Assembly: GCA_023249795.1 (NCBI GenBank) | Contig: JAHFBU010000001.1 | Span: forward strand, 1 to 38,499 | DNA: 38,499 nucleotides | From: Syntrophaceae bacterium | Lineage (GTDB): Bacteria; Desulfobacterota; Syntrophia; Syntrophales; UBA5619 | Reading direction: 5' to 3' | Part shown: positions 12,001 to 38,499 of the stretch, piece after piece | Layout: every line of letters starts with the position of its first letter | Numbering within the stretch: the stretch's first letter is position 1 | The notes under the pieces: model-generated | Database searches by the model: none | What the model saw: only the letters and a program-made list of their open reading frames with translations | What the model was told of the DNA's origin: nothing | Position numbers and translations under genes: made by a program

Positions 12001-14484
<2,484 letters not shown>

Positions 14485-17198: not shown

Positions 17199-17205
17199 TG
17201 TCTCT

Positions 17206-19590: not shown

Positions 19591-19643
19591 GTCTCTCTTT
19601 TGACAGAGCCTCCCGCCGTTGTCAATCCCCTTCCAATTTTCCG

Positions 19644-19671
19644 TTGCATCAAACCGTCGAACCCTTATATA
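19644..19671 (+). promoter_or_regulatory. Candidate sigma70 promoter for trmJ
   Basis: TTGCAT (19644-19649), a 16-nt spacer, then TATATA (19666-19671), in the divergent rsmG/trmJ spacer. Confidence 0.3.
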
Positions 19672-19760
19672 AGAAACTCCTCCTTGCCATACGTAGGCAT
19701 TGCAGACAGGGGCAGAGTCCATAGCGGAGAGGGAAGTCACAAAAAGGGACGGGCAACCAC

Positions 19761-20501: not shown

Positions 20502-20586
20502 CTTTCCGCTGCCGGGCTCGTATGCAGTCCGCTCACAGTCGTGACATTATTATGACAGAATACGCCATAAATATGGAGAACCGGTC

Positions 20587-21744: not shown

Positions 21745-21809
21745 AACATGAAAATGGAGACACGATGCGGCATCATGTCCCCATTTTCCGGACAAAGGAG
21801 AAAAAGGTT

Positions 21810-23006
21810 ATGGCCGGTGCGGAAGTGATTGGTAAGGAAGAGATCAGGGAGGTCATGGAGGTCCTGAAAACAGGCGTCTTTGCAAGATACGCCTTCGACA
21901 AGGAACGGCAGGGGATCTGGAAGGTTCGGGATTTCGAGAGGGCCTTCGCGAAGTATTGCGGGACGCCGTATGCTTTAGGCGTGACCTCGGGATCGTCGGC
22001 CCTCAAGGTCGCGCTCACGGCGCTCGACGTGGGGCCCGGCGATGAGGTGATCTGCCCCGCCTTCACATTCATGGCCACCTACGAGGCGGTTCTTGAGGTC
22101 GGCGGCATCCCCGTCATGGCGGACATCGACGATACCCTGAACCTCGATCCCGATTATATTCCCAACAAGATCACGCCGCGCACCAAGGCGGTCATACCCG
22201 TCCACATGTGCGGGGCGCCCGCGCGGATGGACAAGATTCTGAAGGTGGCCAAAAAACACAAACTCTTCGTCCTTGAAGATACCGCCCAGGGACTGGGGGC
22301 GAGCTTCAAGGGGAAGATGCTCGGCTCGCTGGGCCACATGGGTACCTTCAGCTTCGACCACTACAAGACGATCACGACCGGCGAGGGAGGCATGGTCATC
22401 ACCAATGACCTCAACCTCTACCACCGCGCCGAATGGTATCACGATCACGGCCACGATCACGTCTCCACCGTTAGCCGGGCGCTCGACGGACGGACGATTC
22501 TCGGCTTCAATTACCGAATGAACGAGTTTCAGGGGGCGATCGGCCTGGCCCAACTGGGAAAACTCAACCGGGTGATCGCCGCGCAGCGGAAGAACCAGGC
22601 GGCCGTTATGGAGATGCTCTCCGTGGTTCCGAAGATCAAGTTCCGCGGGATGGCCGACCCGGAAGGGGATTCGGCGACCTTCCTCGCCTTCAACCTGCCC
22701 CATGCGGAGCAGACGAAGGCCTTTCAGAATGCTCTCAAGGAGGAAGGTCTCGACACGGTCTGTTTCAAGGAGAATTTCTGGCACTACCTTCCCAACTGGG
22801 AACATTTCCTGGCGAAGTCAACAGCCCAGACGAAGAATCCTTTTACGGATAAACGCAACGGGAAAGTAAACTACAACCGCAAGGCGATTCCGAACGCGGA
22901 AGATCTTCTCGGCCGGACACTGGTCATGGGGATCTCGGTGAAGATGCCTGCGGCCAGGATGAAGGCGATGCGCAAGGCGATCACGAACGCGGCAAAAGTG
23001 CTGTAG
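21810..23006 (+). CDS. DegT/DnrJ/EryC1/StrS-family PLP-dependent sugar aminotransferase; KdnA-like by context
   Basis: About 398 aa from MAGAEVIGKEE. RBS AAGGAG lies upstream of the ATG at 21810; the track ORF starts at 21732. The PLP-lysine context is SFDHYKTITTGEGGMV. Confidence 0.9.
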   Translation: MAGAEVIGKEEIREVMEVLKTGVFARYAFDKERQGIWKVRDFERAFAKYCGTPYALGVTSGSSALKVALTALDVGPGDEVICPAFTFMATYEAVLEVGGIPVMADIDDTLNLDPDYIPNKITPRTKAVIPVHMCGAPARMDKILKVAKKHKLFVLEDTAQGLGASFKGKMLGSLGHMGTFSFDHYKTITTGEGGMVITNDLNLYHRAEWYHDHGHDHVSTVSRALDGRTILGFNYRMNEFQGAIGLAQLGKLNRVIAAQRKNQAAVMEMLSVVPKIKFRGMADPEGDSATFLAFNLPHAEQTKAFQNALKEEGLDTVCFKENFWHYLPNWEHFLAKSTAQTKNPFTDKRNGKVNYNRKAIPNAEDLLGRTLVMGISVKMPAARMKAMRKAITNAAKVL

Positions 23007-23015
23007 GAGATCAAT

Positions 23016-23984
23016 ATGATCGTTGTTACCGGCGGGGCCGGGTTCATCGGAAGTGCCTTCGTTGCGAAACTCAATGCCGAGGGGATCGGCGACATCATCA
23101 TCGTCGACGAATTGGGGACAGACGAGAAGTGGAAGAACCTTGTCAAACGCCGCTACACGGACTATCTCCACAAGGAGACCTTTCTCTCCATGGTGGAGGC
23201 GGACGAGGTTCCTTTTCCCGTTGAGGCCATCATCCACATGGGGGCCTGCTCCTCGACGACGGAACGGGACGCCGACTACCTCATTGAAAACAACTTCCAT
23301 TACACCTGCTGTCTTGCGGAATGGACGCTTGCCCAGGAGATACGGTTTATTTACGCGAGTTCCGCGGCGACCTACGGCGACGGCGCACAGGGTTTCTCCG
23401 ACGAGGATGATACAACCCGCAGCCTGCGGCCGATCAATATGTACGGCTACTCGAAGCAGCTCTTCGACCTGAAGGTGCTGCGCGAAGGGATAGCGGACAA
23501 AGTTGCCGGGATCAAATTCTTCAACGTTTTTGGCCCGAACGAGTATCACAAGGGCGACATGACCAGCGTGATCTTCAAGGCATTCCATCAGATCCGTGAG
23601 ACGGGAAAGGTGCGCCTCTTCAAATCGTACAAGCCGGAATACAGCGACGGCGGTCAGATGCGTGATTTCGTGTATGTCAAGGACTGCGTCGAGATCCTCT
23701 GGTGGCTTCTGAACCACAAGGAAGCGAACGGGATCTTCAACCTCGGGACGGGACGGGCGCGGACCTGGAACGACCTGATCGGTTTGGTCTTCACCGCGAT
23801 GAACCTGTCGCCGGCCATCGATTACATTGAGATCCCGGAGGCAATCCGGGGACAGTACCAGTATTTTACCGAGGCGAAAATGGACAAACTTAGGGCCGCC
23901 GGTTGCCCGGTCGTCTTTGCTCCGCTGGAGGAAACGGTCGCGGATTACGTGATGCACCTGATTGCGGCCGATCGCTATTTGTAG
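23016..23984 (+). CDS. hldD: ADP-L-glycero-D-manno-heptose 6-epimerase
   Basis: 322 aa with the Rossmann motif MIVVTGGAGFIGS, the catalytic YGYSK, and overall HldD/RfaD-like sequence (FFNVFGPNEYHKG). RBS AGGAG. Confidence 0.92.
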   Translation: MIVVTGGAGFIGSAFVAKLNAEGIGDIIIVDELGTDEKWKNLVKRRYTDYLHKETFLSMVEADEVPFPVEAIIHMGACSSTTERDADYLIENNFHYTCCLAEWTLAQEIRFIYASSAATYGDGAQGFSDEDDTTRSLRPINMYGYSKQLFDLKVLREGIADKVAGIKFFNVFGPNEYHKGDMTSVIFKAFHQIRETGKVRLFKSYKPEYSDGGQMRDFVYVKDCVEILWWLLNHKEANGIFNLGTGRARTWNDLIGLVFTAMNLSPAIDYIEIPEAIRGQYQYFTEAKMDKLRAAGCPVVFAPLEETVADYVMHLIAADRYL

Positions 23985-24095
23985 AGGTTGTCAGTCCCGC
24001 GAAAGCGGGAAGCCAGTTTAAAAAAGTTCCGGACCCCGGCGGACGCCGGGGTGACAAGCGGCATTGAATTAAATTGTTTCCGTTAGAGGGTAACA

Positions 24096-24845
24096 ATGCC
24101 CGTCCATGTTGTCTGCATCATCCCGTCGCGTTACGAATCAAGCCGCTTTCCAGGAAAGCCGCTCGCCGAGCTCTGCGGAAAGCCGATGATCCGGCACGTC
24201 TATGAGCGGGTCCTGCGGGCGCGGTGCGTCTCATCCGTGGCCGTGGCCACGGATGACGAGCGGATCTTCCAGGCGGTCCGGGCCTTCGGCGGCCGGGCGG
24301 TGATGACTTCCGCGCAACATCGTTCGGGCACGGACCGGATCGCTGAGGCGGTCGAGACGATGGGGCTGCGGAACGAGGACATCGTTGTCAACATCCAGGG
24401 GGACCAGCCGCTCTTCGAACCGGCGCAGGTGGACGAGGTCGTGCAGCCGCTCCTGGACGATTTGACGATTCCCATGTCCACGTTGATCTACCGGATTGTC
24501 CGCGACGAAGAGATCACCCATCCGAACGCGGTCAAGACCGTCTTCGACCGTGACCAGTTCGCCCTCTACTTCTCCCGCGCCACGATTCCTTTTGTCCGAG
24601 ACCGGGGGAACAAGGCCGAATACTTCAAACACCACGGGATCTACGCCTACCGTCGCGGTTTCCTGCGCACCTTTATCTCGCTGCCCGAGGGGGTGCTGGA
24701 GCGGCTGGAGGCGCTCGAACAGCTCCGAGCTATCGAGCACGGCCACCGGATCAAGGTGGTCATCACGCCGCACGACTCCGTCGAGGTGGACACGCCCCAG
24801 GAGTTGGAGCGCGTCCGCAGACTGATGACAGGCGAGGAAACCTGA
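24096..24845 (+). CDS. kdsB: 3-deoxy-manno-octulosonate cytidylyltransferase (CMP-Kdo synthetase)
   Basis: 249 aa with IIPSRYESSRFPGKPL, VNIQGDQPL and HHGIYAYRRGFL, all typical of KdsB. Confidence 0.93.
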   Translation: MPVHVVCIIPSRYESSRFPGKPLAELCGKPMIRHVYERVLRARCVSSVAVATDDERIFQAVRAFGGRAVMTSAQHRSGTDRIAEAVETMGLRNEDIVVNIQGDQPLFEPAQVDEVVQPLLDDLTIPMSTLIYRIVRDEEITHPNAVKTVFDRDQFALYFSRATIPFVRDRGNKAEYFKHHGIYAYRRGFLRTFISLPEGVLERLEALEQLRAIEHGHRIKVVITPHDSVEVDTPQELERVRRLMTGEET

Positions 24846-24858
24846 AACAGGAGCGCAG

Positions 24859-25803
24859 ATGATCGACGTCGAGTATCTGAATAAAATCAGACTGGTTTCC
24901 CGGCCGCTCGGCCAGAAGATCGTTGCGAATTTTCTGCTTCTGCCCAACTACCGCATCTTTCAGAGGGTGGACATCCGGATCGAGAACATCGAACGGATTC
25001 CCCGCGGTGAGAGCGTGATCTTCGCCATGAACCACACCGACCGGTTCAACTACTGGCCCTTTCAGTACAAGCTCTTCAAGGCGCGAGAGTTCCCGTTCAC
25101 GACGGTCTGGGTGAAGGCCAAATACTACAAGAATGCCTTCCTTGCGAAGGGACTGGATTTCTGCAACCTCATCCCCGTGCCGTCGATGGGATATCTCATC
25201 GAGGAGTATTACCGGAAGATGTTCAACCGCAAGATGGACAAGGGTCTCTACCGCGCGGTCAAGGACATGATCGAAGGCCGTCTCGCGGATGGCGGGCCGC
25301 AGGAGCGGGCCGCCATCGAGACGCTCCAGTCGATGGGCGAACAGTTTGCGGAGTTCATCAGGACGCAATACGAGGGGGTCATGGAGAAGGTTGCGGAAGT
25401 GAGCCGCGCGGCCCTCTGCGAGCAGAAGCTCAATGTGATCATCTTTCCGGAGGGAACCCGCTCCGTGAAGCTGGCCGAGGGCCGGACCGGCCTTGCCCAA
25501 CTCGCCCTGCATACGGAAAAGCGGATCGTCCCCGTCGCCTGCAACAACTCCGAAGAGGTGTATCGGGGGAGCCTCCCCTTTGCGCGGAGCGGCCGGATCA
25601 CCTACCGGATCGGCGAGCCGCTTTCCGTGCACGATCAGCTCAAGCCCTTCCGGATCGGCGAGCCGTTCCGCCTCCTCTCTCGGGAATCGCAGCAGCGCTA
25701 CCGGGAGCAGTTCGAGGGTGTGACTCAGGTCGTCATGGAGAGCATCGACCGGATGCTCGACGAAAAATACCGCCGGGGCTGCGCTGCGACATCCCCAGTC
25801 TGA
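24859..25803 (+). CDS. Lysophospholipid/PlsC-superfamily acyltransferase
   Basis: 314 aa with MNHTDRFN (an H-x4 motif variant) and IIFPEGTRS. RBS AGGAG lies 5 nt upstream. It follows kdsB after 13 nt. Confidence 0.75.
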   Translation: MIDVEYLNKIRLVSRPLGQKIVANFLLLPNYRIFQRVDIRIENIERIPRGESVIFAMNHTDRFNYWPFQYKLFKAREFPFTTVWVKAKYYKNAFLAKGLDFCNLIPVPSMGYLIEEYYRKMFNRKMDKGLYRAVKDMIEGRLADGGPQERAAIETLQSMGEQFAEFIRTQYEGVMEKVAEVSRAALCEQKLNVIIFPEGTRSVKLAEGRTGLAQLALHTEKRIVPVACNNSEEVYRGSLPFARSGRITYRIGEPLSVHDQLKPFRIGEPFRLLSRESQQRYREQFEGVTQVVMESIDRMLDEKYRRGCAATSPV

Positions 25804-29586: not shown

Positions 29587-29629
29587 ATAAAAAAAGAAAA
29601 GCCGCGGACCTTTCGGGGTCTGCGGCTTT
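29587..29629 (-). terminator. First intrinsic terminator of the ilv leader (attenuator T1)
   Basis: The minus-strand RNA reads AAAGCCGCAGACC-CCGAAA-GGUCCGCGGCUUU, 12 of 13 bp, followed by UCUUUUUUUAU. It begins 16 nt after the leader-peptide stop. Confidence 0.6.
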
Positions 29630-29851: not shown

Positions 29852-32800
29852 TTACTCACCCTTCACGACGACGCCCGCCGCCGTGCCGGAGAAGGAACCG
29901 GTGCCGGGGAGGGATTGGCCGTGAGCGGCGGTGTTGTTCACGCCCGGGGTGATCGTCCCCGCCGCCGCGCCCGGCATCGACGAAATGTGGATCGCCGTCG
30001 GCGCCGCGGGCAGTCTTGCCGTGTCGGTGGTGCTTCGGGCCAGCGTCCCGGGGGTGTCTGTTTGGAGATTGTGAAGGGCGGCGCCCCAGCCGTTGTTTGT
30101 CGTGTCCCACTGCTTCACTACGAATGTCTGTGTCAACCCCGTGAGGTTGCCGGAGCTACTGAGCGTCACCGTGGTGCCGACCGACGGATCCGCGGCGTAG
30201 CTTCCATAAACATTGTTTGTAGCCCAGATCCGCGGACCCTCCTCGTTCTGGAAACGGAAGAACTTGATGTTGTCCATGTTCACGTAAAGGTTGCCGTTGT
30301 TGCCCCGGAGGTTGGCCATCCCGACGTCGAAGGCGGGGATCTTCGTGGCTCGCTCGAAATTGGCCCTTTCGCTGTCGGCCATCCCGGACTGCTTGTCGAT
30401 AAAGTTTTCAGTTCTCATGTAACCGCCCTGGGAAATGGCGGTCCAGGTGAGCGGTGTCGTGGTGGGATCAAAGATCCCCTTGACGCCGCCGCCCATGACC
30501 ACCGTGTAGGATTCGGGGATGGACTCGGCGGTCATTTTTTCTCCCCACCTGGCCTCGGCTCCCGCCACGGTGCCCGAGGAGACGCCGTTGGCCGAAGCAC
30601 CCATACTGAAGTTCAGATACTCGCTGCCATAACCGCCAGCCCAAGGCGACGGAAGGGGTATGTTTTCTTCGACCGACGAGATGTTGCTACGGAAATCAAG
30701 GGGATCCCCCCCGATTAGGGAAGGGTAGCCCCCGAGAGATCCCGTACCGTAGCCTCCCGCGGATGTGTCATCGAAACCCCCGAATACCCTGTGCCAGATT
30801 CCCCATGATTCACCGGGGAAATGTTGGATGGTTGTCTGGGACGTCTGCGAATTGTTTGTGTATGCCAAGGTGTTTATGGTGGATGACGATAGATAGCCTG
30901 ACATCTGGTAGGCATTGATGTCTCCCTGCGCTTTCCAGGAACCGATCTCGGGGGCGTAGGTGCCGGCGATGTCATCACTGTAGAGGATGCCCCCGTAGCC
31001 GTAGCCCTGCTGGTAAAGGGCCATGATGCCGCCGGAAACGACGTTGGCGGAATCGGCGGCGACTCCGGCGAATCCCTCATAGTATCCCGTGAACGTCGAG
31101 GTTACGGGAATGTGGCTGAAAATTGCGCTCGCGGCGACAAAGGGCACGGTCGGGAGAGATCCCACCTCTTTGTTGCCCAGGAGGCCGAGGAACTTGATCG
31201 GGCTCGTCCCGGATGCGAAAAGGTTTAAGCTCAGGCCGCCCATGATGCCGCTGAAATAATACTGATCCTGTTGAAGGTTCACAGACTCTCCGTAACCGGA
31301 AACCACGGTCTTGAATGTGGAGCCGTCGATGGCGCTGCTGAAGGCGAGCATTTGGCCCGAGAAGGTCCCCACCCCCTCGCCGATCCACCCTCCGCTGAAG
31401 CCTCCGTCGCCGTCCGACTCTTCGTTGTACAAGCCATAGAAGGGGCCGCTGAAGGTGCCGATCTGGTCCATGGTCATGTAGTCGCCGGAAGTGACGCCCG
31501 TAATCTCGCCGTTCCCTTCCCCGATGGACGTCCAGACGGGGCTGTTTACCTTGCCGATCCAGAAACCGCTTTCGGTGGAACCGCCGCCGGTCTTGATGGC
31601 TTTTCCGTCGAAGGGATGAGAAGAACCTGTCCCAGAACCATGGTCTTGATATCCGTCCTCGATCCAGAAAGCGAAGACCCCCCACGGAAGATTGAAGGTT
31701 GCTTCCCGCTCACTGTCGTAGGCGCTGAAGTAGAAGGCGTCGATCCCGCCCAGGCCCCGGATCAGGCTTCCGGAATCGTTTCCGTATCCCGCCCTGATGT
31801 CATATTCCGTTTCCTGAAGGGTGAATGCGCTGAGGGTGGTGCGCGTCTCCATCGGCGTAGCCGTCAGGGTGCCGTCGAGGGACCAGTAACCGTATTCTAT
31901 ACCGTTCTCCACCGGGTAGGGATAAAACCCGCCCGTCAGGCCCCCCTCGCTGCCGCCCGGGGTGAAGGTGGACAGAAGTCCCGCCTTCCCGTTCTTGACA
32001 TAGATGGCCGCCAGCGCGCCGTTCGCCGTCCGTTCCCAGACGCCGTTCTCGGGATCGACGTGAGAGAGGAGCCTTCCCGCGACGGCGCCGAAGAAATCGC
32101 CGTCCTGGAAAAGCGGCTCATTCCAGAGAGAATTCGCCGGATCCGGGCGGCTGCCGACCGGTGAACTCAACAGGAGGGCATTCGGCGCGGAGCTTTCAAA
32201 GTAATCGGCGTAATCCATCCCGTATGCTCCCGCCACCTTGATCGCCGCGGGGGCGTTCCACGGGGCGGTCCAGGCGCCGATGAGGCCCCACTCGTCGCCG
32301 ACGTGCTCCTCGTAGCCGTTGTCGTTGATGTACAGGCAATTATTTATGGCATAGCCCCAGTATCCGCCGAAGGCCGTCGGGGCCAGTTCGATGGTCCCTG
32401 CGCCGCCGCTGTTGCCGCCGTAATAGGGATCGCTCTCCCATGACTCGAAATTGATGTAGCCCATGGATCCGGGGAGCCCTGCTTCGAAGTTGCCCGTTCC
32501 CTTGAACTGGTTGTATCCGGGTGTGATGTAGAGGAGGTTCCGTCCCGACAGGCGCAGGCGGGTCGGATCGGTCTCCGTCCCCACCCCTGTGTTATACCCG
32601 GTGACATTGCCTACGATGAAGTAAGGATAGGGATCATCCCCTTCCTGGACCGCGTAGTTGTAACCGGCGTGCCCGTACTTGGCCGCCCATGTCGTCGGGG
32701 CATTTCCCGCCGCGCTGTAGTAGAACCCGTTATCGTCATTGATCCTGTTCACGGCCCAGGCGGAAAGGAATTTTGACCCGTCGGACGAGAGGTAGTTCTG

Positions 32801-35800
32801 GCTGGCGCCGGCGCCGTCCAGGATGCTTCCGGCGGAAACGACGCCGGACCAGATATAAGCGGGAAGGCCGGGCCCTCCCACCAGCACCGCCGAAACGCCG
32901 GGGACGTCCAGGCCCATCTGTTCGAAAAGAGCGGGCGAAACGCCGGTCAATCCCGTTGTGGCGGTCGTAAGAGCGGGCGTTCGGGTCAGGCCGCCGCTTG
33001 CGGTCAGTCTCCCATTGGCGTCATTGTAAGTCCCGTCGAGATAACCGAGAAAAAGCCCGACGCCCGTCGCATCGGCATAGAGGCCACTCAGGGCGCCCTC
33101 CCAGGAGCCGGGGATACTGGTGATCAGTCCCGTAACGTTGCTGCCGTTCTGCATTCGGCCGACAAGGGTTCCGATCTCCTGTTGCGGGGCAAGGTAGGGG
33201 GTTTCCTGTCCCGGTGTCTGGTCGTACTCCAGCGTCAGGGTGATGGAGCCGATGTTGGTCGTGCTGTTCAGGTTCTCCAGAAGCCTCCCCGCGGCGGTGC
33301 TTTCCCCGGGCGTCGCCGGATATGAATAGGGGAAATAGACATTGATCCGCGGTGCCTCCGTTGAAATTTCCACCACCCCCGCCGCCGTGCCGGAGAAGGA
33401 ACCGGTGCCGGGAAGACCCGTGTTGTTTACGCCCGGGGTGATCGAACCCGCCGCCAGGCCGGTCATTGCCGAGATCGGTATCGTGGCGGTGGCACCCTCG
33501 GGCAGTGTCCGGGTTTCAGTCCGTGTCAGGATTCCTCCCGTGTCGGTGGCGCCGTTGTTGTAGATGGAGGCGCCCCAGCCATTGTTTGGCGTGTCCCACT
33601 GCTCGACCTCAAAGGTATGGTTCAGGCCGACGAGGTTGCCGGAACTGGTGAGCGTCACGGTGGTACCGACCGTCGGATCGGTGGTGTAGCTTCCGTAGAC
33701 ATTGTTTGTTGCCCAGAGCTGTGGGTTTGCCTCGTTCTGGAAGCGGAAGAACTTGATGTTGTCCATACCCACATAAAGGTTGCCGTTGTTGCCGCGGAGG
33801 TTGGCCATTCCGACATCGAAGGCGGGGATCTTCAGCGCGCGCTCGAAATCGGCCCGCCCGCTGTCGGTCATTTCGGACAGCATGCCGAGGAAGGTTTCCG
33901 ACCTCATGCCGCCGCCCTGGGAGATGGCGGTCCAGGCCAGAGGCGTGGAATTGGGATCGAATAGGGCCTCGACGCTGCCGCCCATGACCAACGTGAAGGA
34001 TTCGGGGGTGGACTCCGAGGGCATCAGTTGATTCCATACGCTGCGGACCCCCACCACGGTTCCCGAGGAGACGCCGTTTACCGGCGCGGCCATGTTGTAG
34101 AGCTGGTACTGGATGCCGTAACTGCTGTCCCATTCCTGGGTCAGTAGAGGGACGTTGTTCTCGATCGATAACCAGTTGCGCGGGGTGTCGCCTTCATAGG
34201 TTCCCCCGGAGACGTTTTGCCAGATTCCCCAGGAGGTCTCGTCGTGGAAGTTCAGGACGACGGTTTGGGATGTCCGCAGATCGACAGTCCCGCCGGAGAT
34301 CGCCTTTACGGGCACTTCACCGGCGGCGTAGGATTGCGAGTATTCCCATCTGTGAATGGATGACGATAGATCGCCCGGCATCCGGTAGGCATTGAGGTTT
34401 CCTTCGGCTTTCCAGGAACCGATTTCGGTGTCGTAGGTACCGGCGACGTCATCGCTCCAGAGGATGCCCCCATCGCCGCCATTGCCCTGTTGGTAAAGGG
34501 CCAGAACCTCGCCCGAAACGGCCTTGGCGGAATCGGTGGCCATGCGGAGGAGGCCTTGATAGGATCCGGCGAATGACGAAGTCACGGGGATGTGGCTGGT
34601 GATTTCGGCCGTTGAAAGAGAAGCCATCCCCAACGCGGAATCCAGAATCACTGCGGGAGGGTCGATGCCGAGGAAACGGATCGGACTGGTTCCCGTTGTG
34701 AAGATGTCCTGGCTTAAGCCTCCCATGATACCGCTGAAGGTGTCGAAAATGGAACCGGATCCGACATACGTCAATCCTTGAATCGTGCTACTGAAGGCGA
34801 GCGTCTGGCCCGAGAAGGTTCCCACCCCTTCGCCGATCCAGCCCCCGCCGTAGCCCCCCGCCCCTTCGTTATACAGACCATAGAAGAGGCCGCTGAACGC
34901 GCCGAACTGGTCATTGTTTATATAGTCGCCGGACAGGGTACCCGTTATCTCGCCATTCCCGGAAGCGGTGGACGTCCAGACGGGGTTGTTCACCTTGCCG
35001 GCCAGGAAGCCGTCTTCGGTGGAGCCGCCTGCGATCTTGATGGCCTTGCCGTTCAAAGCCGTAGGCGTTCCCTCGAAAGAGGCGGCGGAATCATTTCCAA
35101 TCGAGAAACCGAAGATCCCCCAGGGAAGGTCGTGGTGCCCTTCAAGCATGCTGTCGTAGGCGTTGAAGAAGGCGGCGCCGAATCCGCCTTCCCCCCGGAT
35201 CCGGCTTCCGGAGGCGTTTCCGTACGCCGCTATGATGCCGAGTTCCCTTTCCTGAAGCATAAAATCGCTGAGGGTGGTGCGCGTCTCCATCGGCGTTGCC
35301 TTCAGGATGCCGTCAAGGTGCCATGTACCGCCATCCGGGCCGAGAGAAAACCCGCCGGTCAGGCCGCCCACGGCGCTGCCCGGGGCATAGGTTGTGAGCC
35401 AACCGGCCTTTCCGTCCTTCAGATAGAGGGCTACCGCCCCCCCCTTTGCAGAGCGGCTCCAGACCGTGCCGGAGGTCCCCGTGTAGGGGCCGATGATTCC
35501 CGCGGCTCCGCCGAAGAAATCCCCATCCGCGAAAACGGAATCATTCCACGGCATGTCCGCCGGCTTCGGGCGGCTGCCGATCGGGGAACCCAACAGGAAG
35601 CCCGGTGCGGAGGCGCCATTGTCGCTTCCGGAGGAATCCATCCGGAACTCTCCCGCAGCCTTGATGACGGCTGGGGCGGACCACGGGGCGGAGCGGGCGC
35701 CGATCAGGCCCCACTCGTCCGCGACATGTTCCTCGTAGCCGTTGTTGTTCATGAACAGGCAGGCTTCTCCATTCGTGCTCATGTCGTAGCCCCAGTATCC

Positions 35801-36655
35801 AATGGTCGTCAGCGGGGGTTCTTCCACCGGCGTCACCCCTGTCCCGGTCAGTTCCGGGGGAATAACAGGCGGCGTGGGCGGTGGGGGAGGTGTGGGCGGT
35901 TCCCCGGGACCGGGGCCGATTACGGGAGCGGTTAAAAGCCCGCCGCTTGCCTGCGTCGGCTCCGTGGGCGTCAGCACCAGAATCATCGGGACCTCCGGGG
36001 CGGCAGAGGCGCCCGCGTCTTTCTTGTCCTTGTCTCCTTTATCCCCGACGGGGGCCGTGTCCGACACATGCTTATCCACTTCGATGGAGGTCGCGGGCTG
36101 AATTACCGGCGGCTGGTTGTTCCCAGGGATCAGGAGGGCCTGACCGGGAGTGACGGTTTTCACATCCTGAGGCATGTTGCGGTTATACCCGTAGATGGTT
36201 CCCTCCTTCGGGACAAAGCCGCTCACCCCATCGTGGAAGAAGGAGAAGAAGTTGGTTCCGCGCACGCCGCAGACGGACGTGGGGGTGTGAACTTCATACC
36301 TTGCGTTTTTGGCCAACGAAGAAACGATATTCTGGGTCTTCCCCCTGAACAGATTCAGGATGGTGGTTTTGCCCTCCCCGGACGGGTAATCTGTGATCCG
36401 GACGCGGGTTCCTTCGGCCAGCCGCAGGATATTCCCATCGAGGAAGGTCACTTCGGCCCTGGCCCTGCTTTTGGATCGTAGGACATCGCCGGCGTTGACC
36501 GGCTCGCCGAGGCCGGCCGGTCGGACCGTGTCGCCGGCGGTGATATCAACGTTGCCCTCAATGTGGGTGATCTTTCCCACCGGGGCGGCGGAGGCGGTCA
36601 GAGGCAGCAACAGCAGGACCGTGATGATCCAAAATAATTTCGTGAAGTTCTTCAT
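29852..36655 (-). CDS. Giant secreted FecR-domain protein with two about 800-aa paralogous modules of unknown function
   Basis: About 2267 aa from MKNFTKLFWIITVLLLLPLTASA|AP. RBS GAGGGGG lies 6 nt upstream of the ATG at 36655; the track ORF starts at 36670. FecR-domain signature GKITHIEGNVDI..AGDVLRSKSRARAEVTFLDGNILRLAEGTRVRI...VHTPTSVCGVRGTNFF. Pro-rich linker GPGPGEPPTPPPPPTPPVIPPE. The rest is Gly/Ser/Thr/Asn/Tyr/Trp-rich. Confidence 0.85.
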   Translation of the reverse strand: MKNFTKLFWIITVLLLLPLTASAAPVGKITHIEGNVDITAGDTVRPAGLGEPVNAGDVLRSKSRARAEVTFLDGNILRLAEGTRVRITDYPSGEGKTTILNLFRGKTQNIVSSLAKNARYEVHTPTSVCGVRGTNFFSFFHDGVSGFVPKEGTIYGYNRNMPQDVKTVTPGQALLIPGNNQPPVIQPATSIEVDKHVSDTAPVGDKGDKDKKDAGASAAPEVPMILVLTPTEPTQASGGLLTAPVIGPGPGEPPTPPPPPTPPVIPPELTGTGVTPVEEPPLTTIGYWGYDMSTNGEACLFMNNNGYEEHVADEWGLIGARSAPWSAPAVIKAAGEFRMDSSGSDNGASAPGFLLGSPIGSRPKPADMPWNDSVFADGDFFGGAAGIIGPYTGTSGTVWSRSAKGGAVALYLKDGKAGWLTTYAPGSAVGGLTGGFSLGPDGGTWHLDGILKATPMETRTTLSDFMLQERELGIIAAYGNASGSRIRGEGGFGAAFFNAYDSMLEGHHDLPWGIFGFSIGNDSAASFEGTPTALNGKAIKIAGGSTEDGFLAGKVNNPVWTSTASGNGEITGTLSGDYINNDQFGAFSGLFYGLYNEGAGGYGGGWIGEGVGTFSGQTLAFSSTIQGLTYVGSGSIFDTFSGIMGGLSQDIFTTGTSPIRFLGIDPPAVILDSALGMASLSTAEITSHIPVTSSFAGSYQGLLRMATDSAKAVSGEVLALYQQGNGGDGGILWSDDVAGTYDTEIGSWKAEGNLNAYRMPGDLSSSIHRWEYSQSYAAGEVPVKAISGGTVDLRTSQTVVLNFHDETSWGIWQNVSGGTYEGDTPRNWLSIENNVPLLTQEWDSSYGIQYQLYNMAAPVNGVSSGTVVGVRSVWNQLMPSESTPESFTLVMGGSVEALFDPNSTPLAWTAISQGGGMRSETFLGMLSEMTDSGRADFERALKIPAFDVGMANLRGNNGNLYVGMDNIKFFRFQNEANPQLWATNNVYGSYTTDPTVGTTVTLTSSGNLVGLNHTFEVEQWDTPNNGWGASIYNNGATDTGGILTRTETRTLPEGATATIPISAMTGLAAGSITPGVNNTGLPGTGSFSGTAAGVVEISTEAPRINVYFPYSYPATPGESTAAGRLLENLNSTTNIGSITLTLEYDQTPGQETPYLAPQQEIGTLVGRMQNGSNVTGLITSIPGSWEGALSGLYADATGVGLFLGYLDGTYNDANGRLTASGGLTRTPALTTATTGLTGVSPALFEQMGLDVPGVSAVLVGGPGLPAYIWSGVVSAGSILDGAGASQNYLSSDGSKFLSAWAVNRINDDNGFYYSAAGNAPTTWAAKYGHAGYNYAVQEGDDPYPYFIVGNVTGYNTGVGTETDPTRLRLSGRNLLYITPGYNQFKGTGNFEAGLPGSMGYINFESWESDPYYGGNSGGAGTIELAPTAFGGYWGYAINNCLYINDNGYEEHVGDEWGLIGAWTAPWNAPAAIKVAGAYGMDYADYFESSAPNALLLSSPVGSRPDPANSLWNEPLFQDGDFFGAVAGRLLSHVDPENGVWERTANGALAAIYVKNGKAGLLSTFTPGGSEGGLTGGFYPYPVENGIEYGYWSLDGTLTATPMETRTTLSAFTLQETEYDIRAGYGNDSGSLIRGLGGIDAFYFSAYDSEREATFNLPWGVFAFWIEDGYQDHGSGTGSSHPFDGKAIKTGGGSTESGFWIGKVNSPVWTSIGEGNGEITGVTSGDYMTMDQIGTFSGPFYGLYNEESDGDGGFSGGWIGEGVGTFSGQMLAFSSAIDGSTFKTVVSGYGESVNLQQDQYYFSGIMGGLSLNLFASGTSPIKFLGLLGNKEVGSLPTVPFVAASAIFSHIPVTSTFTGYYEGFAGVAADSANVVSGGIMALYQQGYGYGGILYSDDIAGTYAPEIGSWKAQGDINAYQMSGYLSSSTINTLAYTNNSQTSQTTIQHFPGESWGIWHRVFGGFDDTSAGGYGTGSLGGYPSLIGGDPLDFRSNISSVEENIPLPSPWAGGYGSEYLNFSMGASANGVSSGTVAGAEARWGEKMTAESIPESYTVVMGGGVKGIFDPTTTPLTWTAISQGGYMRTENFIDKQSGMADSERANFERATKIPAFDVGMANLRGNNGNLYVNMDNIKFFRFQNEEGPRIWATNNVYGSYAADPSVGTTVTLSSSGNLTGLTQTFVVKQWDTTNNGWGAALHNLQTDTPGTLARSTTDTARLPAAPTAIHISSMPGAAAGTITPGVNNTAAHGQSLPGTGSFSGTAAGVVVKGE
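29855..32365 (-). repeat. Module B of the intragenic duplication (from GYWGYA.. to the C-terminal PGTGSFSGTAAGVV)
   Basis: Collinear with module A through many conserved blocks: NGYEEHVxDEWGLIGA, TATPMETRTTLS, GGWIGEGVGTFSGQ, KIPAFDVGMANLRGNNGNLYV, WATNNVYGSY, PGTGSFSGTAAGVV. Confidence 0.85.
33371..35800 (-). repeat. Module A of the intragenic duplication (from GYWGYD.. to PGTGSFSGTAAGVV)
   Basis: Same conserved blocks as module B. The 35-nt stretch 33378-33412 is identical to 29874-29908. Confidence 0.85.
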
Positions 36656-36699
36656 ATGATACCCCCTCATTAAGAAAAGGAACGATGATCGGTTTTCCC

Positions 36700-38250
36700 T
36701 TAGAATTTAAGCTCCATCCCCAGTGAATAGATCTCCCGCTTATAGTCGTAGGCGTAGATGTTGGAATTCACCCGCGTATAGAGGTACTGGGCGGTCACGT
36801 CCATCTGCTTGAAGATCGTCCAGGTCAGGCCGACCGTTCCCGTGTAGGTGCGGTCCTTGCGGACCGCGTTGTCGAAGATAAGGTTTTCGTTATTGTAATC
36901 CTGCAGATAGAGATCGCCTCCCAACTGGAGCCGCAGCTTGTCCCGAAGCGGATAGATCAGGCCGGCCGAAAAACGGTAGCCCTGGTTGTCGTAATTGCGG
37001 CCCTCGGCATTGTCCCTGGTGTAGCCGACCTTCAGGTTTAAGAGGGCGTTCTCCCGGAAGAACCAGATCCCGTTCAGGGAGCCGTCCAGTCCCCGTGAAG
37101 ACTGGTCCTCGTTTGCGGGATCGGGGACCGCGAGGAAATAATTCTTTCTCACGAAGGCAAGGCTGGCCTCGAGAATGCGATTATTGCTCAGAAGATAGCG
37201 GAACAGGGGGCCGACGCTGGCGCTTTCGGAATAGCGGTTATAACCGGGATCGCGCTTCAGATTGTGGGTGTAGTTGGCCACCAGGTTGACGGCGAATTTC
37301 TCGAAACTGACCCCCGGCGCCATTGTGAAGGAGTTGGAGAAGGTATCGTTGTCGGTGCCGTATCGCTGATGGAGCGCATTCGCGGCTGCATATCCGGCCG
37401 TGAAGATGAAGGGTGCGCGGAGGACGGGCACATAGTCAAGCCGGACGACGTTCTGCATCACCAGGCTCTGCCTGTCCTGGCTCTCCAGGTAATGGGTCAT
37501 GGCTGCGGGGGCTTGGGCGTAGGGTTCTGCCAGAGTCCTGTAGTTGGAGTCGTACTGAGCGGTTACGTCGATCGTCACCCGAAGCGGCCGCTCGATGTAT
37601 TGCCAATGCTCCGCGGCATCCTGATAGCGCCGCGCGTAGGAGGCCATGTCGGAAAGGGGGTCTTGCGTCACCGCCGCCTGGAAACGATTCCGGGCCAGTT
37701 TGAATTTACGCTGGTTCATATAGCAGATGCCGGTCTGGAGATCGGCGGACTGGGTATAGGCAGGATCGAGCTGCTTGCATTTTTCGAACGCGGCGACGGC
37801 CTCGTCGTATTTCGCCTGCTTCGCGAGCAACGTTCCCTTGAGAAAGGCGACGCGGGCCGGGTAGACCTTGTGCTCTTCGGCAACGCCGATCCACTTGCTG
37901 GCGGTATCGAACTTGTCCAGCAAAGTCGCCGCCTCGATAAATTCGAGGATCGCGTTGTCCGAAAGGGGCCTGAGGGCCACGGCATCCTCGAACTGCTTGT
38001 AGGCGTCCTGGATGTCATTGGCCTGACGGTAGGCCATGCCGAGATAGAAGGCCGCTTCAGCCGAAGCCGGATCTTCCCCCCGCGCCTTGGCCAGCGCCAC
38101 GATGGCCTCTTCAAGATTTTCCTGGTTATAGAGCGCGATCCCCTCCTTCAGGGAATCCGACCTCTGAGCGAAGGCCGGCGTGGGCAACGCGGGGAATATA
38201 ACAACAGCGATAACAAAGACAAAAACGGATAGAATAGCGAATTTTCTCAT
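36700..38250 (-). CDS. Outer-membrane protein: N-terminal TPR-like domain plus C-terminal beta-barrel (Slam/DUF560-like architecture, unverified)
   Basis: About 516 aa from MRKFAILSVFVFVIAVVIFPALPTPAFA|Q. RBS AAAGGA lies upstream of the ATG at 38250; the track ORF starts at 38295. About 200 aa of TPR-like helical repeats (AAFYLGMAYRQANDIQDAYKQFEDAV..., AFLKGTLLAKQAKYDEAVAAFEKCKQLDP). Then about 290 aa of alternating-pattern beta strands rich in Y/N/R/D, ending ...YSLGMELKF with a C-terminal Phe. Confidence 0.8.
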   Translation of the reverse strand: MRKFAILSVFVFVIAVVIFPALPTPAFAQRSDSLKEGIALYNQENLEEAIVALAKARGEDPASAEAAFYLGMAYRQANDIQDAYKQFEDAVALRPLSDNAILEFIEAATLLDKFDTASKWIGVAEEHKVYPARVAFLKGTLLAKQAKYDEAVAAFEKCKQLDPAYTQSADLQTGICYMNQRKFKLARNRFQAAVTQDPLSDMASYARRYQDAAEHWQYIERPLRVTIDVTAQYDSNYRTLAEPYAQAPAAMTHYLESQDRQSLVMQNVVRLDYVPVLRAPFIFTAGYAAANALHQRYGTDNDTFSNSFTMAPGVSFEKFAVNLVANYTHNLKRDPGYNRYSESASVGPLFRYLLSNNRILEASLAFVRKNYFLAVPDPANEDQSSRGLDGSLNGIWFFRENALLNLKVGYTRDNAEGRNYDNQGYRFSAGLIYPLRDKLRLQLGGDLYLQDYNNENLIFDNAVRKDRTYTGTVGLTWTIFKQMDVTAQYLYTRVNSNIYAYDYKREIYSLGMELKF

Positions 38251-38499
38251 GATTTGTCCTTTCTGTGGCGGGTTTGGCCGGACCGCTTGGTGCAAGACGC
38301 CGAAAGAAAACTGAAAACAAGAGATGACTGCCGAATTGCAGGCACGACCTCCCAGGCAAAAAAATAATGTTGGATGTTTGATAAATAATGGGGCGAACCG
38401 GCGCGAAAAGTCAAGAAAAAAGTACTTATACCGTCATGAGGGACGCGGCTGAAAGGATGAGACGCAGTTGCATTGGACAATCACATCATTCCGTATTTT

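What the first reader, a model, noticed from the sequence alone, without database searches (positions are those of the whole stretch)
29852..38250. Two-gene module: TPR/beta-barrel outer-membrane protein plus a 2267-aa FecR-domain repeat protein, a candidate uncharacterised secretion or surface system
Seen in the sequence:
- Two co-oriented genes are separated by 44 nt.
- The first encodes a Sec-signal protein with about 200 aa of TPR-like repeats fused to an about 290-aa beta-barrel-like region ending in ...LGMELKF.
- The second encodes a very large Sec-signal protein (ASA|AP cleavage site, no lipobox). It has a clear N-terminal FecR domain, a poly-proline linker and about 2000 aa of Gly/Ser/Thr/Asn/aromatic-rich sequence in which I recognise no known domain.
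- I see no RTX GGxGxD nonapeptides, no TPS domain, no autotransporter-like C-terminal barrel signature, no LPXTG and no PEP-CTERM.

Established knowledge: a TPR domain plus a small barrel is the architecture of Slam/DUF560 (type XI secretion) translocators, and these are usually encoded next to their cargo.

Inference: the barrel protein exports or anchors the giant protein at the cell surface. A FecR domain at the N-terminus of a giant exported protein, rather than in an anti-sigma factor, would make this a new cargo class or a new system. No sigma/anti-sigma or TonB-receptor gene is adjacent in the window.
Basis: partly seen in the sequence, partly recalled or inferred. Interest (0 to 1): 0.85.

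Follow-up and report, generated by a model that had tools for sequence, protein, structure and literature searches.

The report
Slam-like barrel tethering plugged giant adhesin
A conserved gene pair in sulfate-reducer and syntroph relatives encodes an outer-membrane barrel and a giant protein whose N-terminal domain resembles the plug that tethers LapA-type adhesins to the cell surface, which points to an undescribed way of displaying very large surface proteins.

Summary
On the minus strand, a 516-aa protein (Sec signal, 11 TPR helices, 14-strand barrel) lies 44 nt upstream of a 2267-aa Sec-signal protein with an N-terminal FecR domain.

The pair is strongly conserved. In 79 species-level loci of Desulfobacterota (one from Thermodesulfovibrionales), 74 carry a FecR gene downstream on the same strand, although the flanking genes differ.

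DUF560/Slam is the only Pfam family that aligns along most of the barrel, and it does so only at borderline scores.

The giant protein has a fixed plan:
- an N-domain as conserved as the barrel;
- a disordered linker;
- a hypervariable passenger, which carries Ig-like domains in some relatives;
- a conserved ~280-aa C-terminal domain with a confident model and no structural or sequence match.

New here: the N-domain profile matches the periplasmic plug (RIN, 5IX9) of the MpIBP adhesin, and the LapA retention-module model matches weakly.

Best reading (confidence about 0.5): a Sec-dependent giant adhesin is threaded through a Slam-like barrel and held by an N-terminal plug.

It is neither a canonical T11SS nor a T1SS. 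TbpB-type cargo barrels, RTX repeats and T1SS genes are all absent. No experiment exists, and I found no published description.

The parts
38385..38414 (-). Sigma-70-like promoter match upstream of the barrel gene (TTGACT, 18 nt spacer, CATTAT)
   Evidence: This is a consensus match only, and the number of matches in the region is no higher than in shuffled sequence.
36700..38250 (-). Gene for the 516-aa TPR + 14-strand outer-membrane barrel protein (Slam-like)
38167..38250 (-). Sec signal peptide of the barrel protein (aa 1-28, AFA|Q). It contains no cysteine, so the protein is not a lipoprotein.
   Evidence: Read from the translation. In the model this is a helix at aa 4-21 followed by a low-confidence stretch.
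37594..38157 (-). Periplasmic TPR domain (aa 32-219, 11 helices)
   Evidence: Pfam TPR_2 and TPR_16 among others. AF2 helices. TPR_Slam PF24575 is hit by 30 of 44 family members.
36703..37584 (-). 14-strand beta-barrel (aa 223-516), ending LGMELKF
   Evidence: AF2 strands. SlipAM scores 23.1 bits over model positions 77-278 of 288. The best barrel-only structural fits are the 14-strand proteins OmpG and CymA.
29852..36655 (-). Gene for the 2267-aa giant protein, including its stop codon
36587..36655 (-). Sec signal peptide of the giant (aa 1-23, ASA|AP)
   Evidence: Read from the translation. The cleavage-site context is conserved in homologs.
36056..36586 (-). Conserved N-terminal FecR-type domain (aa ~24-200), proposed to act as a periplasmic plug or retention module
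   Evidence: PF04773 at 38.9 bits. The family profile hits PDB 5IX9 (RIN of MpIBP) at E 3e-5. NF033682 retention_LapA is hit by 22 of 22 members at E<=1, with a best E of 2.4e-8. The domain is 40-75% identical across homologs and co-diverges with the barrel.
35816..36055 (-). Pro/Gly/Thr-rich low-complexity linker (aa ~201-280), proposed to be the segment that spans the membrane pore
   Evidence: The segment is 24% Pro and 70% disorder-promoting residues. The equivalent segment in 43 homologs has a median of 80% disorder-promoting and 9% hydrophobic residues.
33371..35839 (-). Passenger module A (aa ~273-1095)
   Evidence: Self-BLAST shows 55% identity to module B over 873 columns.
33368..34246 (-). 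Internal copy of the conserved 'C-terminal domain' (CTD copy 1, aa 804-1096)
   Evidence: The CTD profile matches here; see also the alignment.
32405..33370 (-). Unique segment between the two modules (aa ~1096-1417). In shorter relatives such as P0109, the homologous segment directly follows the linker.
29867..32404 (-). Passenger module B (aa ~1418-2263)
29855..30715 (-). Terminal conserved C-terminal domain (CTD copy 2, aa 1981-2267), ending ...GSFSGTAAGVVVKGE
   Evidence: Alignment A2. AF2 model with pLDDT 89.8 and pTM 0.88. No match in PDB or Pfam. The domain is C-terminal in essentially all of the top 150 of 631 relatives.
29596..29614 (-). Terminator-like hairpin plus T-run between the giant gene and ilvB
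   Evidence: This is a consensus match only.

Best explanation
The two genes encode a dedicated outer-membrane display system for a giant, fast-evolving surface protein, probably an adhesin.

Proposed steps:
1. Both proteins cross the inner membrane by the Sec pathway.
2. The 516-aa protein inserts into the outer membrane as a 14-strand barrel, with its TPR domain in the periplasm.
3. The giant protein's N-terminal FecR-type domain folds in the periplasm. The rest is kept unfolded; in many relatives a Skp-type chaperone is encoded next door.
4. The unfolded part is passed outward through, or with the help of, the Slam-like barrel. Transport probably starts from the conserved C-terminal domain.
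5. The folded N-domain is too bulky to follow. It stays in the periplasm as a plug, possibly docked on the TPR domain.
6. The protein is therefore left tethered, with its disordered Pro-rich linker in the pore and its variable passenger outside.

Shown here:
- the domain anatomy;
- 14 strands in a confident model;
- conservation of the gene pair;
- equal conservation and co-divergence of the barrel and the N-domain;
- the relationship of the N-domain to the RIN/LapA retention module;
- the universal disordered linker;
- the C-terminal position of the CTD.

Inferred, not shown:
- surface exposure;
- threading through the barrel;
- the direction of transport;
- the plug role;
- adhesive function.
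For: - Gene pair. Six divergent homologs sit in six different genomic contexts. In 79 GTDB species-representative loci, 74 have a FecR-N gene downstream on the same strand. Of the other five, two are cut by a contig end (L065, L088), two have only 0.9-1.3 kb of downstream sequence (L059, L039), and only L042 has ample room (10 kb) and still lacks a partner.
- Barrel. It has a TPR domain plus 14 strands. This is the T11SS outer-membrane protein architecture as described in PMC8406197. SlipAM is the only Pfam family spanning most of the barrel.
- N-domain. Its profile hits RIN of MpIBP (5IX9) at E 3e-5. All 22 members hit NF033682 retention_LapA at E<=1. RIN is described as a periplasmic plug too large for the outer-membrane pore (PMC5550230), and the LapA retention module tethers that adhesin in LapE (10.1101/198937).
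- Linker. A disordered linker follows the N-domain in all 43 homologs examined, as it does in LapA.
- Co-divergence. Barrel and N-domain are equally conserved (44% vs 43% mean identity). Their identity matrices correlate (r 0.64, Mantel 0 of 999). Paralogous pairs duplicated as units.
- Passenger. It is hypervariable, and in some relatives it carries Big_13, PKD, HYR, FN3 or Y_Y_Y domains, which are typical of extracellular proteins.
- Neighbouring genes. The only recurrent extra genes are a Skp-like chaperone (13 loci), a CsgD-like regulator (14 loci) and a PilZ-like protein (12 loci). Skp is required for Slam-mediated TbpB translocation (PMC9090332). CsgD and PilZ point to biofilm and c-di-GMP control.
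Against: - No experiment or expression data exists for any member of the family.
- The SlipAM score is at the threshold: 20.6 bits in the full protein and 23.1 for the barrel alone, against a gathering score of 22.
- The retention_LapA score for the window protein is far below NCBI's cutoff (17.5 vs 50), and its single-sequence match to 5IX9 is not significant (E 0.38). Only the family profile gives significance.
- Known T11SS cargo is defined by a C-terminal 8-strand TbpB-type barrel. The CTD shows no such similarity.
- Some partners are short (268-560 aa) and have neither passenger nor CTD. The core barrel/N-domain interaction may therefore serve a purpose other than display.
- Correlation of the two identity matrices is expected from co-inheritance alone.
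- No release protease of the LapG type is linked to the pair.
Confidence: 0.5

Rival explanations
1. This is a T11SS-like secretion system without tethering. The barrel translocates the whole giant protein, which is then released or re-binds the surface. The FecR-type N-domain and/or the CTD act only as recognition signals for the TPR domain.
For: The barrel has Slam-like architecture and borderline SlipAM hits. T11SS secretes soluble, unlipidated cargo (PMC12282271). The conserved CTD sits at the extreme C-terminus, where T11SS targeting domains lie. A Skp gene is linked to the pair.
Against: The N-domain is specifically related to a domain whose described role is retention. It is the most conserved part of the giant and is followed by a pore-length disordered linker. 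The CTD is unlike known T11SS cargo barrels.
Confidence: 0.17
2. This is a periplasmic or inner-leaflet envelope complex. The FecR-type domain binds the TPR domain and the giant protein stays in the periplasm, for example as a structural or envelope-spanning scaffold. The barrel acts only as an outer-membrane anchor.
For: FecR-type domains are periplasmic protein-binding modules in cell-surface signalling (established knowledge). Short partners consisting of only the FecR domain plus a tail exist. Some barrel homologs carry an N-terminal peptidoglycan-binding SPOR domain.
Against: Hypervariable passengers of 1000-3400 aa carrying Ig-like, PKD or HYR domains are typical of surface proteins. A 14-strand barrel is more than an anchor needs. 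The strictly C-terminal conserved domain suggests an export signal.
Confidence: 0.15
3. The barrel is an exopolysaccharide export porin of the EpsL/BBP2/PgaA/BcsC type, and the FecR protein is an accessory factor.
For: BBP2_2 is hit by 42 of 44 family members. EpsL TIGR03014 scores E 1e-9. The top whole-chain Foldseek hit is BcsC. A CsgD-like regulator is present in some loci.
Against: The BBP2_2 match covers only the last ~58 model positions. EpsL scores 37.5 bits against a cutoff of 275. The barrel has 14 strands, not 16-18. The BcsC hit has a TM-score of 0.32 and is driven by the shared TPR-plus-barrel layout. No glycosyltransferase or synthase gene recurs in the 79 loci.
Confidence: 0.05
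4. This is a FecR-type trans-envelope signalling system: a sensor that passes signals from an outer-membrane protein to a regulator.
For: The PF04773 domain is present. In 12-14 loci, CsgD-like and PilZ genes lie between the two genes.
Against: There is no cytoplasmic anti-sigma domain and no membrane anchor, only a cleavable signal peptide. No ECF sigma factor or TonB-dependent transducer is found in the window or recurrently in the 79 loci. The model does not explain the 2000-aa variable region.
Confidence: 0.03

Closest known systems
Type XI secretion / Slam (DUF560, PF04575) translocons with adjacent cargo (Neisseria Slam1-TbpB, Xenorhabdus NilB-NilC, HrpB-HrpC)
   Same: - A Sec-dependent outer-membrane protein with an N-terminal periplasmic TPR domain and a 14-strand barrel.
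- The cargo gene is encoded immediately adjacent.
- The cargo has a conserved domain at its extreme C-terminus.
- A Skp chaperone is connected to both: experimentally for Slam, by gene linkage here.
   Different: - The sequence relationship to PF04575 is only borderline.
- The host lineage is Desulfobacterota and Nitrospirota, not the host-associated Proteobacteria.
- The cargo is 1000-3400 aa rather than ~20-80 kDa.
- The cargo has no TbpBBD or lipoprotein-C-type 8-strand barrel and no lipid anchor.
- The cargo has a conserved FecR-type N-domain, which the T11SS cargo survey never mentions.
LapA/MpIBP-type RTX adhesins retained in their T1SS pore by an N-terminal retention module (NF033682; RIN, PDB 5IX9)
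   Same: - A giant modular surface protein.
- A conserved N-terminal beta-rich domain related in sequence (profile E 3e-5).
- A flexible linker immediately after that domain.
- A hypervariable, repeat-rich passenger.
- A hint of c-di-GMP or biofilm control (PilZ and CsgD-like genes in a subset of loci).
   Different: - Export is Sec-dependent, with a cleavable signal peptide, rather than by T1SS.
- There are no RTX repeats.
- No ABC/MFP/TolC-like genes are linked.
- No LapG/LapD genes are linked.
- The pore would be a 14-strand monomeric barrel rather than a TolC-like trimer.
CdrA-CdrB two-partner secretion adhesin retained in its outer-membrane pore
   Same: A Sec-dependent large adhesin is held in a dedicated single-protein outer-membrane pore that is encoded next to it and upstream.
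   Different: CdrB is a POTRA + 16-strand TpsB protein. CdrA has a TPS domain and a cysteine hook. None of these features is present here.
FecR/PupR anti-sigma regulators and Leptospira FecR-domain lipoproteins (LipL45, Lsa33)
   Same: All share the PF04773 domain. LipL45 and Lsa33 are the best NCBIfam hits of the N-domain, and they are annotated as outer-membrane or surface proteins.
   Different: There is no anti-sigma domain, no transmembrane segment, no lipobox and no partner sigma factor or TonB receptor. The scores are far below the family cutoffs.

Membership tests
T11SS / Slam outer-membrane protein (DUF560, PF04575) | N-terminal periplasmic TPR domain | tested here: met
   TPR families match at aa 34-200. 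The AF2 model has 11 helices at aa 32-219. TPR_Slam PF24575 is hit by 30 of 44 family members.
T11SS / Slam outer-membrane protein (DUF560, PF04575) | 14-strand C-terminal barrel (as opposed to 16 strands in PgaA-like proteins) | tested here: met
   The AF2 model (pLDDT 90.2) has 14 strands at aa 223-515. The criterion is taken from PMC8406197.
T11SS / Slam outer-membrane protein (DUF560, PF04575) | Sequence match to PF04575 at Pfam's gathering score | tested here: inconclusive
   The full protein scores 20.6 bits against a gathering score of 22. The barrel alone scores 23.1 bits over model positions 77-278 of 288. Nine of 44 members hit at E<0.01. Four of 8 isolated barrels pass, scoring 23-34 bits.
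T11SS / Slam outer-membrane protein (DUF560, PF04575) | Cargo gene encoded adjacent | tested here: met
   There is a 44-nt gap in the window. A partner gene lies downstream in 74 of 79 species-level loci.
T11SS / Slam outer-membrane protein (DUF560, PF04575) | Cargo ends in an 8-strand TbpBBD or lipoprotein-C-type barrel | tested here: not met
   The CTD has no Pfam hit and no PDB sequence hit. Foldseek against the PDB finds nothing below E 0.03 or above TM 0.2. The criterion is taken from PMC12282271. The CTD coordinates could not be inspected directly.
T11SS / Slam outer-membrane protein (DUF560, PF04575) | Barrel-dependent translocation of cargo to the surface | not testable with these tools
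   This needs surface labelling or shaving with and without the barrel gene.
LapA-type retained T1SS adhesins (retention module, NF033682) | N-terminal retention module | tested here: inconclusive
   The window protein scores 17.5 bits against a cutoff of 50. All 22 family members hit at E<=1, with a best E of 2.4e-8. The family profile hits RIN 5IX9 at E 3e-5. This indicates a related domain, not membership at the curated threshold.
LapA-type retained T1SS adhesins (retention module, NF033682) | Flexible linker directly after the module | tested here: met
LapA-type retained T1SS adhesins (retention module, NF033682) | C-terminal RTX repeats and T1SS signal; no Sec signal peptide | tested here: not met
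   There is no GGxGxD motif and no RTX Pfam hit. A cleavable Sec signal is present.
LapA-type retained T1SS adhesins (retention module, NF033682) | Linked ABC transporter, MFP and TolC-like genes, plus LapG/LapD | tested here: not met
   None is present in the window, and none recurs in the 79 loci.
FecR-type anti-sigma regulators (cell-surface signalling) | PF04773 domain | tested here: met
   38.9 bits against a gathering score of 24.
FecR-type anti-sigma regulators (cell-surface signalling) | Cytoplasmic anti-sigma domain plus a transmembrane segment N-terminal to the FecR domain | tested here: not met
   The domain starts directly after the ASA|AP signal-peptide cleavage site.
FecR-type anti-sigma regulators (cell-surface signalling) | Adjacent ECF sigma factor and TonB-dependent transducer | tested here: not met
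Exopolysaccharide export porins (BcsC, PgaA, EpsL/BBP2) | 16-18-strand barrel, family-level sequence match and linked polysaccharide synthesis genes | tested here: not met
   The barrel has 14 strands. EpsL scores 37.5 bits against a cutoff of 275. BBP2_2 matches only the last ~58 model positions. No recurrent glycosyltransferase or synthase gene is linked.
Type V secretion (autotransporters, two-partner secretion) | C-terminal 12-strand translocator, or a TPS domain with a POTRA-containing TpsB partner | tested here: not met
   No such Pfam hits. The CTD strands are not amphipathic in the way membrane strands are, and the protein does not end in an aromatic residue (read from the sequence).

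The most novel reading that the evidence does not exclude
This is a previously undescribed outer-membrane display system of Desulfobacterota. Sec-exported giant adhesins are threaded, C-terminus first, through a dedicated Slam-like TPR/14-strand barrel, and they stay tethered by an N-terminal FecR-fold plug that is homologous to the LapA/MpIBP retention module.

If correct, three things follow:
- The retention-module principle operates outside type I secretion.
- A T11SS-like translocon can handle multi-thousand-residue cargo that lacks the TbpB-type barrel.
- FecR domains and adhesin retention modules are one fold family.
Probability: 0.4. Interest if true: 0.85.

Novelty: new variant of a known kind. 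Interest (0 to 1): 0.7.

Why it matters
- Scope of T11SS. T11SS is the youngest named secretion system. Its verified cargo is small, comes from host-associated Proteobacteria, and is defined by a C-terminal 8-strand barrel. A conserved Slam-like barrel paired with 1000-3400-aa cargo of a different design, in free-living anaerobes, would widen what this class of translocon can move and how cargo is recognised.
- A second route to tethering. The link between FecR-type domains and the LapA/MpIBP retention module suggests that a periplasmic plug on a threaded linker is a general solution for tethering giant adhesins, reached through two different export routes.
- Ecology. The carriers (Syntrophales, Smithella, Desulfobacterales) live by physical association with partners and surfaces in digesters and sediments. 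Hypervariable giant surface proteins are obvious candidates for mediating aggregation.
- A possible new fold. The conserved C-terminal domain is confidently modelled and has no match, so it is also a candidate new fold.

Tried and rejected
1. CTD as a TbpB-like handle-plus-barrel. The motif F.G.AAG...G.FSGTAAG looked reminiscent of TbpB. I rejected the idea at the sensitivity available:
   - no Pfam hit;
   - no PDB sequence hit;
   - no Foldseek hit in the PDB or BFVD.
   The BFVD search was poor use of the last Foldseek job.

2. Barrel as an EPS porin. BcsC is the top Foldseek hit, but with a TM-score of 0.32 that reflects only the shared TPR-plus-barrel layout. The strand count and gene context also argue against it.

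3. LPGTG as a sortase signal, and TAAG as a LapG site.
   - Both motifs lie in the conserved last strands of the CTD.
   - In homologs, TAAG varies to GTGAG, GEGAG or GTASG, so it is more likely structural.
   - No LapG gene is linked to the pair.

4. The transglutaminase-like gene at 5912-7606 as a LapG analogue. It hits PF01841 and was not seen to match the LapG family. It lies 22 kb away among housekeeping genes, and no transglutaminase-like family is among the recurrent neighbours in related loci.

5. Mobile or island origin. I rejected this because the window is the chromosomal origin region (dnaA, dnaN, gyrB, gyrA, parAB, rsmG) and the pair's GC content is like that of its surroundings.

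6. Literature. Searches for FecR together with 'retention module', for DUF2860/BBP2, and for FecR proteins in Syntrophales found nothing describing this pair.

7. Mirror-tree correlation. It is positive, but I do not count it as evidence of physical contact, because co-inheritance alone would produce it.

Full report
**1. What is in the sequence**

Both genes lie on the minus strand.

- The upstream gene spans 36700..38250 and encodes 516 aa. Its ATG at 38250 follows GAAAGGA.
- The downstream gene spans 29852..36655 and encodes 2267 aa. Its ATG is 7 nt after GAGGGGG. The database copy, P0108, has the same length.
- The two genes are 44 nt apart.
- A promoter-like site (38414-38385) precedes the pair, and a hairpin with a T-run (29614-29596) follows it. 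Both are consensus matches only.
- Downstream come ilvB, ilvN and ilvC. The rest of the window holds ftsK, gyrA, gyrB, dnaN, dnaA, parB, parA, rsmG and sugar-nucleotide genes.
- The pair therefore sits in the chromosomal origin region and not on an island. The window ends about 250 nt upstream of the barrel gene.

**2. The barrel protein**

- The N-terminus is a Sec signal peptide (AFA|Q) without a cysteine.
- Pfam finds multiple TPR families at aa 34-200.
- An AlphaFold2 model built on 44 homologs (pLDDT 90.2) has 11 helices at aa 32-219 followed by 14 strands at aa 223-515.
- In a Foldseek search of the PDB, the best whole-chain hit is BcsC (E 2.7e-12, TM only 0.32). This reflects the shared TPR-plus-barrel layout.
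- The best barrel-only fits are the 14-strand proteins OmpG (TM 0.62-0.69) and CymA. No Slam structure appeared among the matches.

Family assignment by sequence is borderline:

| Pfam or NCBIfam family | Members hit (of 44) | Window barrel scanned alone | Model coverage |
|---|---|---|---|
| BBP2_2 (PF10082) | 42 | 25.1 bits (gathering score 23.7) | only the last ~58 of 378 positions |
| TPR_Slam (PF24575) | 30 | not applicable | TPR region |
| DUF2860 (PF11059) | 11 | no hit | C-terminal half, in other members |
| SlipAM/DUF560 (PF04575) | 9 | 23.1 bits (gathering score 22) | positions 77-278 of 288 |

- In other family members, SlipAM scores 25-34 bits and covers up to positions 1-279 of 288.
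- In the full-length window protein, SlipAM scores 20.6 bits, just below threshold.
- EpsL scores 37.5 bits against a cutoff of 275.
- My reading is that this is a distant relative of the DUF560 barrels. It shares their defining architecture of a periplasmic TPR domain plus a 14-strand barrel (PMC8406197). It is not a PgaA/BcsC-type porin.

**3. The giant protein has a fixed plan**

Self-comparison shows two ~830-870-aa modules that are 55% identical. They lie at aa 278-1100 and 1423-2268 in 2272-aa numbering and are separated by a unique ~320-aa segment.

Comparison with 45 homologs shows the general design:

- **N-domain.** It starts right after the signal peptide and runs to about aa 200. 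It is 40-75% identical even between proteins that share nothing else.
- **Linker.** A low-complexity segment follows. It is 24% Pro in the window protein. In 43 homologs the median is 80% disorder-promoting and 9% hydrophobic residues, against 58% and 31% in the rest of the proteins.
- **Passenger.** It is hypervariable. Complete partners are 268-3216 aa in the species-level loci, and database relatives reach about 3600 aa. In some relatives the passenger contains Big_13, Y_Y_Y, PKD, HYR, Big_3_3 or FN3 domains.
- **C-terminal domain (CTD).** This conserved ~280-aa domain ends with F.G(G/A)AAG.I...G.FSGTAAG(V/I).(K/R).
- **Origin of the window protein.** It is a P0109-like protein (1430 aa) with an extra module, including a second CTD copy, inserted after the linker.

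The CTD itself:

- Its AlphaFold2 model is confident (pLDDT 89.8, pTM 0.88). It has about 15 mostly long strands and two helices.
- It has no Pfam hit and no PDB sequence hit.
- Foldseek finds nothing in the PDB or BFVD below E 0.03 or above TM 0.2.
- An exhaustive profile search of 1.84 billion representative proteins finds 631 proteins (477 at E<=1e-30). In essentially all of the top 150, the best match ends at the C-terminus. Many also have 2-9 weaker internal copies.

**4. The pair is a unit**

- Six homologs that are 36-48% identical to the window barrel lie in six unrelated contexts. Each is followed on the same strand by a FecR-domain gene.
- A scan of GTDB species representatives found 169 relatives, and 79 loci were kept. 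They come from Syntrophales, Smithella, Syntrophus, Desulfobacterales, Desulfatiglandales, Syntrophorhabdaceae, one 'Geobacter' MAG and one Thermodesulfovibrionales genome.
- I built my own HMMs for the barrel, the N-domain and the CTD and searched six-frame ORFs. This paired 78 barrel ORFs or ORF fragments with a downstream FecR-N ORF on the same strand. Clustering of the ORFs puts the FecR protein in 74 of the 79 loci.
- Of the five loci without a partner, two are cut by a contig end (L065, L088). Two have only 0.9-1.3 kb of downstream sequence (L059, L039). Only L042 has ample room (10 kb) and still lacks one.
- Barrel and N-domain are equally conserved (mean identity 44% vs 43%). Their identity matrices correlate (r 0.64, Mantel 0 of 999). 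In genomes with two pairs, each barrel's nearest relatives match those of its own partner. This shows inheritance as a unit. It is compatible with physical contact but does not prove it.
- Clustering all flanking ORFs shows only three other recurrent genes:
  - a Skp/OmpH-like chaperone in 13 loci, usually directly after the giant gene, and also seen with Pfam PF03938;
  - a CsgD-like LuxR regulator in 14 loci (best NCBIfam hit CsgD, 113.9 bits);
  - a PilZ-like protein in 12 loci.
  The CsgD-like and PilZ-like genes are inserted between the barrel and FecR genes.
- No T1SS components, LapG/LapD, sigma/anti-sigma, TonB receptor or polysaccharide genes recur.

**5. The N-domain is related to adhesin retention modules**

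- Besides PF04773 (38.9 bits), the N-domain weakly matches the Leptospira FecR-domain lipoproteins LipL45 and Lsa33.
- A profile of 22 N-domains hits exactly one PDB entry significantly: 5IX9 (E 3e-5, 26.6 bits, profile positions 18-95).
- 5IX9 is RIN, the N-terminal periplasmic domain of the 1.5-MDa Marinomonas adhesin MpIBP. It is described as too large to pass the outer-membrane pore and therefore as a plug that keeps the adhesin attached (PMC5550230).
- All 22 N-domains also match NCBIfam NF033682 'retention module-containing protein' at E<=1. The best E is 2.4e-8. The window protein scores E 0.0036 and 17.5 bits, far below the cutoff of 50.
- The LapA retention module was modelled on 5IX9. 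It tethers LapA in its TolC-like pore LapE, with a flexible segment threaded through the pore (bioRxiv 10.1101/198937).
- No paper in the searchable library mentions both FecR and 'retention module'.

**6. Mechanism proposed**

The steps are:

1. Both proteins are exported by the Sec pathway.
2. The N-domain folds in the periplasm.
3. Skp-type holdases keep the rest of the giant protein unfolded.
4. The TPR domain and barrel take the chain outward, plausibly starting at the CTD. This is by analogy with T11SS, where the C-terminal domain of the cargo is the common element (PMC12282271) and Skp is required (PMC9090332).
5. The N-domain cannot follow and stays as a plug. The disordered linker is left in the 14-strand lumen and the variable passenger on the surface.

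The anatomy and conservation are shown. Topology, direction of transport and function are inferred. I put this reading at about 0.5.

The rivals are:

- full secretion without tethering (0.17);
- a purely periplasmic complex (0.15);
- an EPS porin (0.05);
- FecR-type signalling (0.03).

The short partners, which consist of only the FecR domain plus a charged tail (for example L003 11559-12578), are the observation that fits the display model least well.

**7. Comparison with known systems, and novelty**

- The system works like a hybrid of T11SS (translocon architecture, adjacent cargo, Skp link) and the LapA/MpIBP retention strategy (N-terminal plug plus linker).
- It is not a member of either as currently defined. 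The cargo lacks the TbpB-type barrel. RTX repeats, T1SS genes and LapG/LapD are absent. The curated thresholds are met only marginally (PF04575) or not at all (NF033682).
- I therefore file it as a new variant of a known kind. It is widespread, with at least 169 species-level genomes carrying the barrel and 631 protein clusters at 50% identity carrying the CTD.
- It is uncharacterised, and no description of it turned up in the literature I could search.

Noticed in passing
window 9331-20387: The cluster gyrA, gyrB, dnaN, dnaA, parB, parA, rsmG marks the chromosomal replication origin region. GC content dips to 0.486 at 14-16 kb, and the cumulative GC skew reaches its minimum at about 16-18 kb.
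   Followed up: partly
L010 9776-11091; L027, L028, L031, L035, L044, L045, L057, L068, L070, L076, L077, L079 (between the barrel and FecR genes): In 12-14 mostly Desulfobacterales loci, a CsgD-like LuxR regulator (CsgD NF007505, 113.9 bits) and a PilZ-like protein are inserted between the two genes. This hints at biofilm or c-di-GMP control of the system.
   Followed up: partly
L001 19604-20131; L008 15929-16474; L020, L022, L023, L028, L033, L049, L051, L081 (after the giant gene); L062, L063, L093 (between barrel and giant genes): A Skp/OmpH-type periplasmic chaperone gene is linked to the pair in at least 13 species-level loci, and its position relative to the pair varies. The window itself has none; ilvB follows the giant gene.
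   Followed up: partly
L003 11559-12578; also L029, L037, L052, L091, L073, L068: Some barrels are paired with short partners of 268-560 aa. These have a signal peptide, the FecR-type domain and a Lys/Ser/Glu-rich tail, but no passenger and no CTD. They may be plug-only proteins or decayed cargo.
   Followed up: partly
P0068, P0069, P0074, P0080, P0081, P0084 (L008 7418-9376): A subgroup of barrel homologs (~650 aa) carries an extra N-terminal SPOR peptidoglycan-binding domain. This is consistent with the N-terminal half being periplasmic.
   Followed up: no
L005-L007, L021, L022 (two divergent pairs ~5 kb apart on opposite strands); L051 (two FecR-N genes, 11570-15046 and 17255-21472, with skp between): Several genomes carry two paralogous barrel/giant pairs. 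The paralogs are 50-57% identical to each other, and each barrel's nearest relatives match those of its own partner, so the pairs duplicated as units.
   Followed up: partly
window 33368-33420 and 29855-29910 (giant aa 1081-1095 and 2249-2263): The conserved terminal CTD motif contains LPGTG (matching the LPxTG pattern) and TAAG (matching the LapG dialanine consensus). Neither has the context of a sortase or LapG site, and TAAG varies to GTGAG or GEGAG in homologs.
   Followed up: partly
P0154, P0160, P0138, P0156 and others: In the largest relatives (2600-3600 aa), the CTD profile matches 5-9 separate stretches. The passenger may therefore largely consist of diverged CTD-like modules.
   Followed up: no
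window 5912-7606 (-): This 564-aa protein has a transglutaminase-core domain (PF01841). LapG-type adhesin proteases are transglutaminase-like. However, this gene is 22 kb from the pair, no hit to the LapG family was seen, and no transglutaminase-like family is among the recurrent neighbours in related loci.
   Followed up: no
window 21732-25803 (+): This run of sugar-nucleotide genes comprises a DegT-type aminotransferase, an NAD-dependent epimerase/dehydratase, a CMP-sugar-type cytidylyltransferase and an acyltransferase. It is probably involved in LPS or surface-glycan synthesis, and nothing links it to the pair.
   Followed up: no
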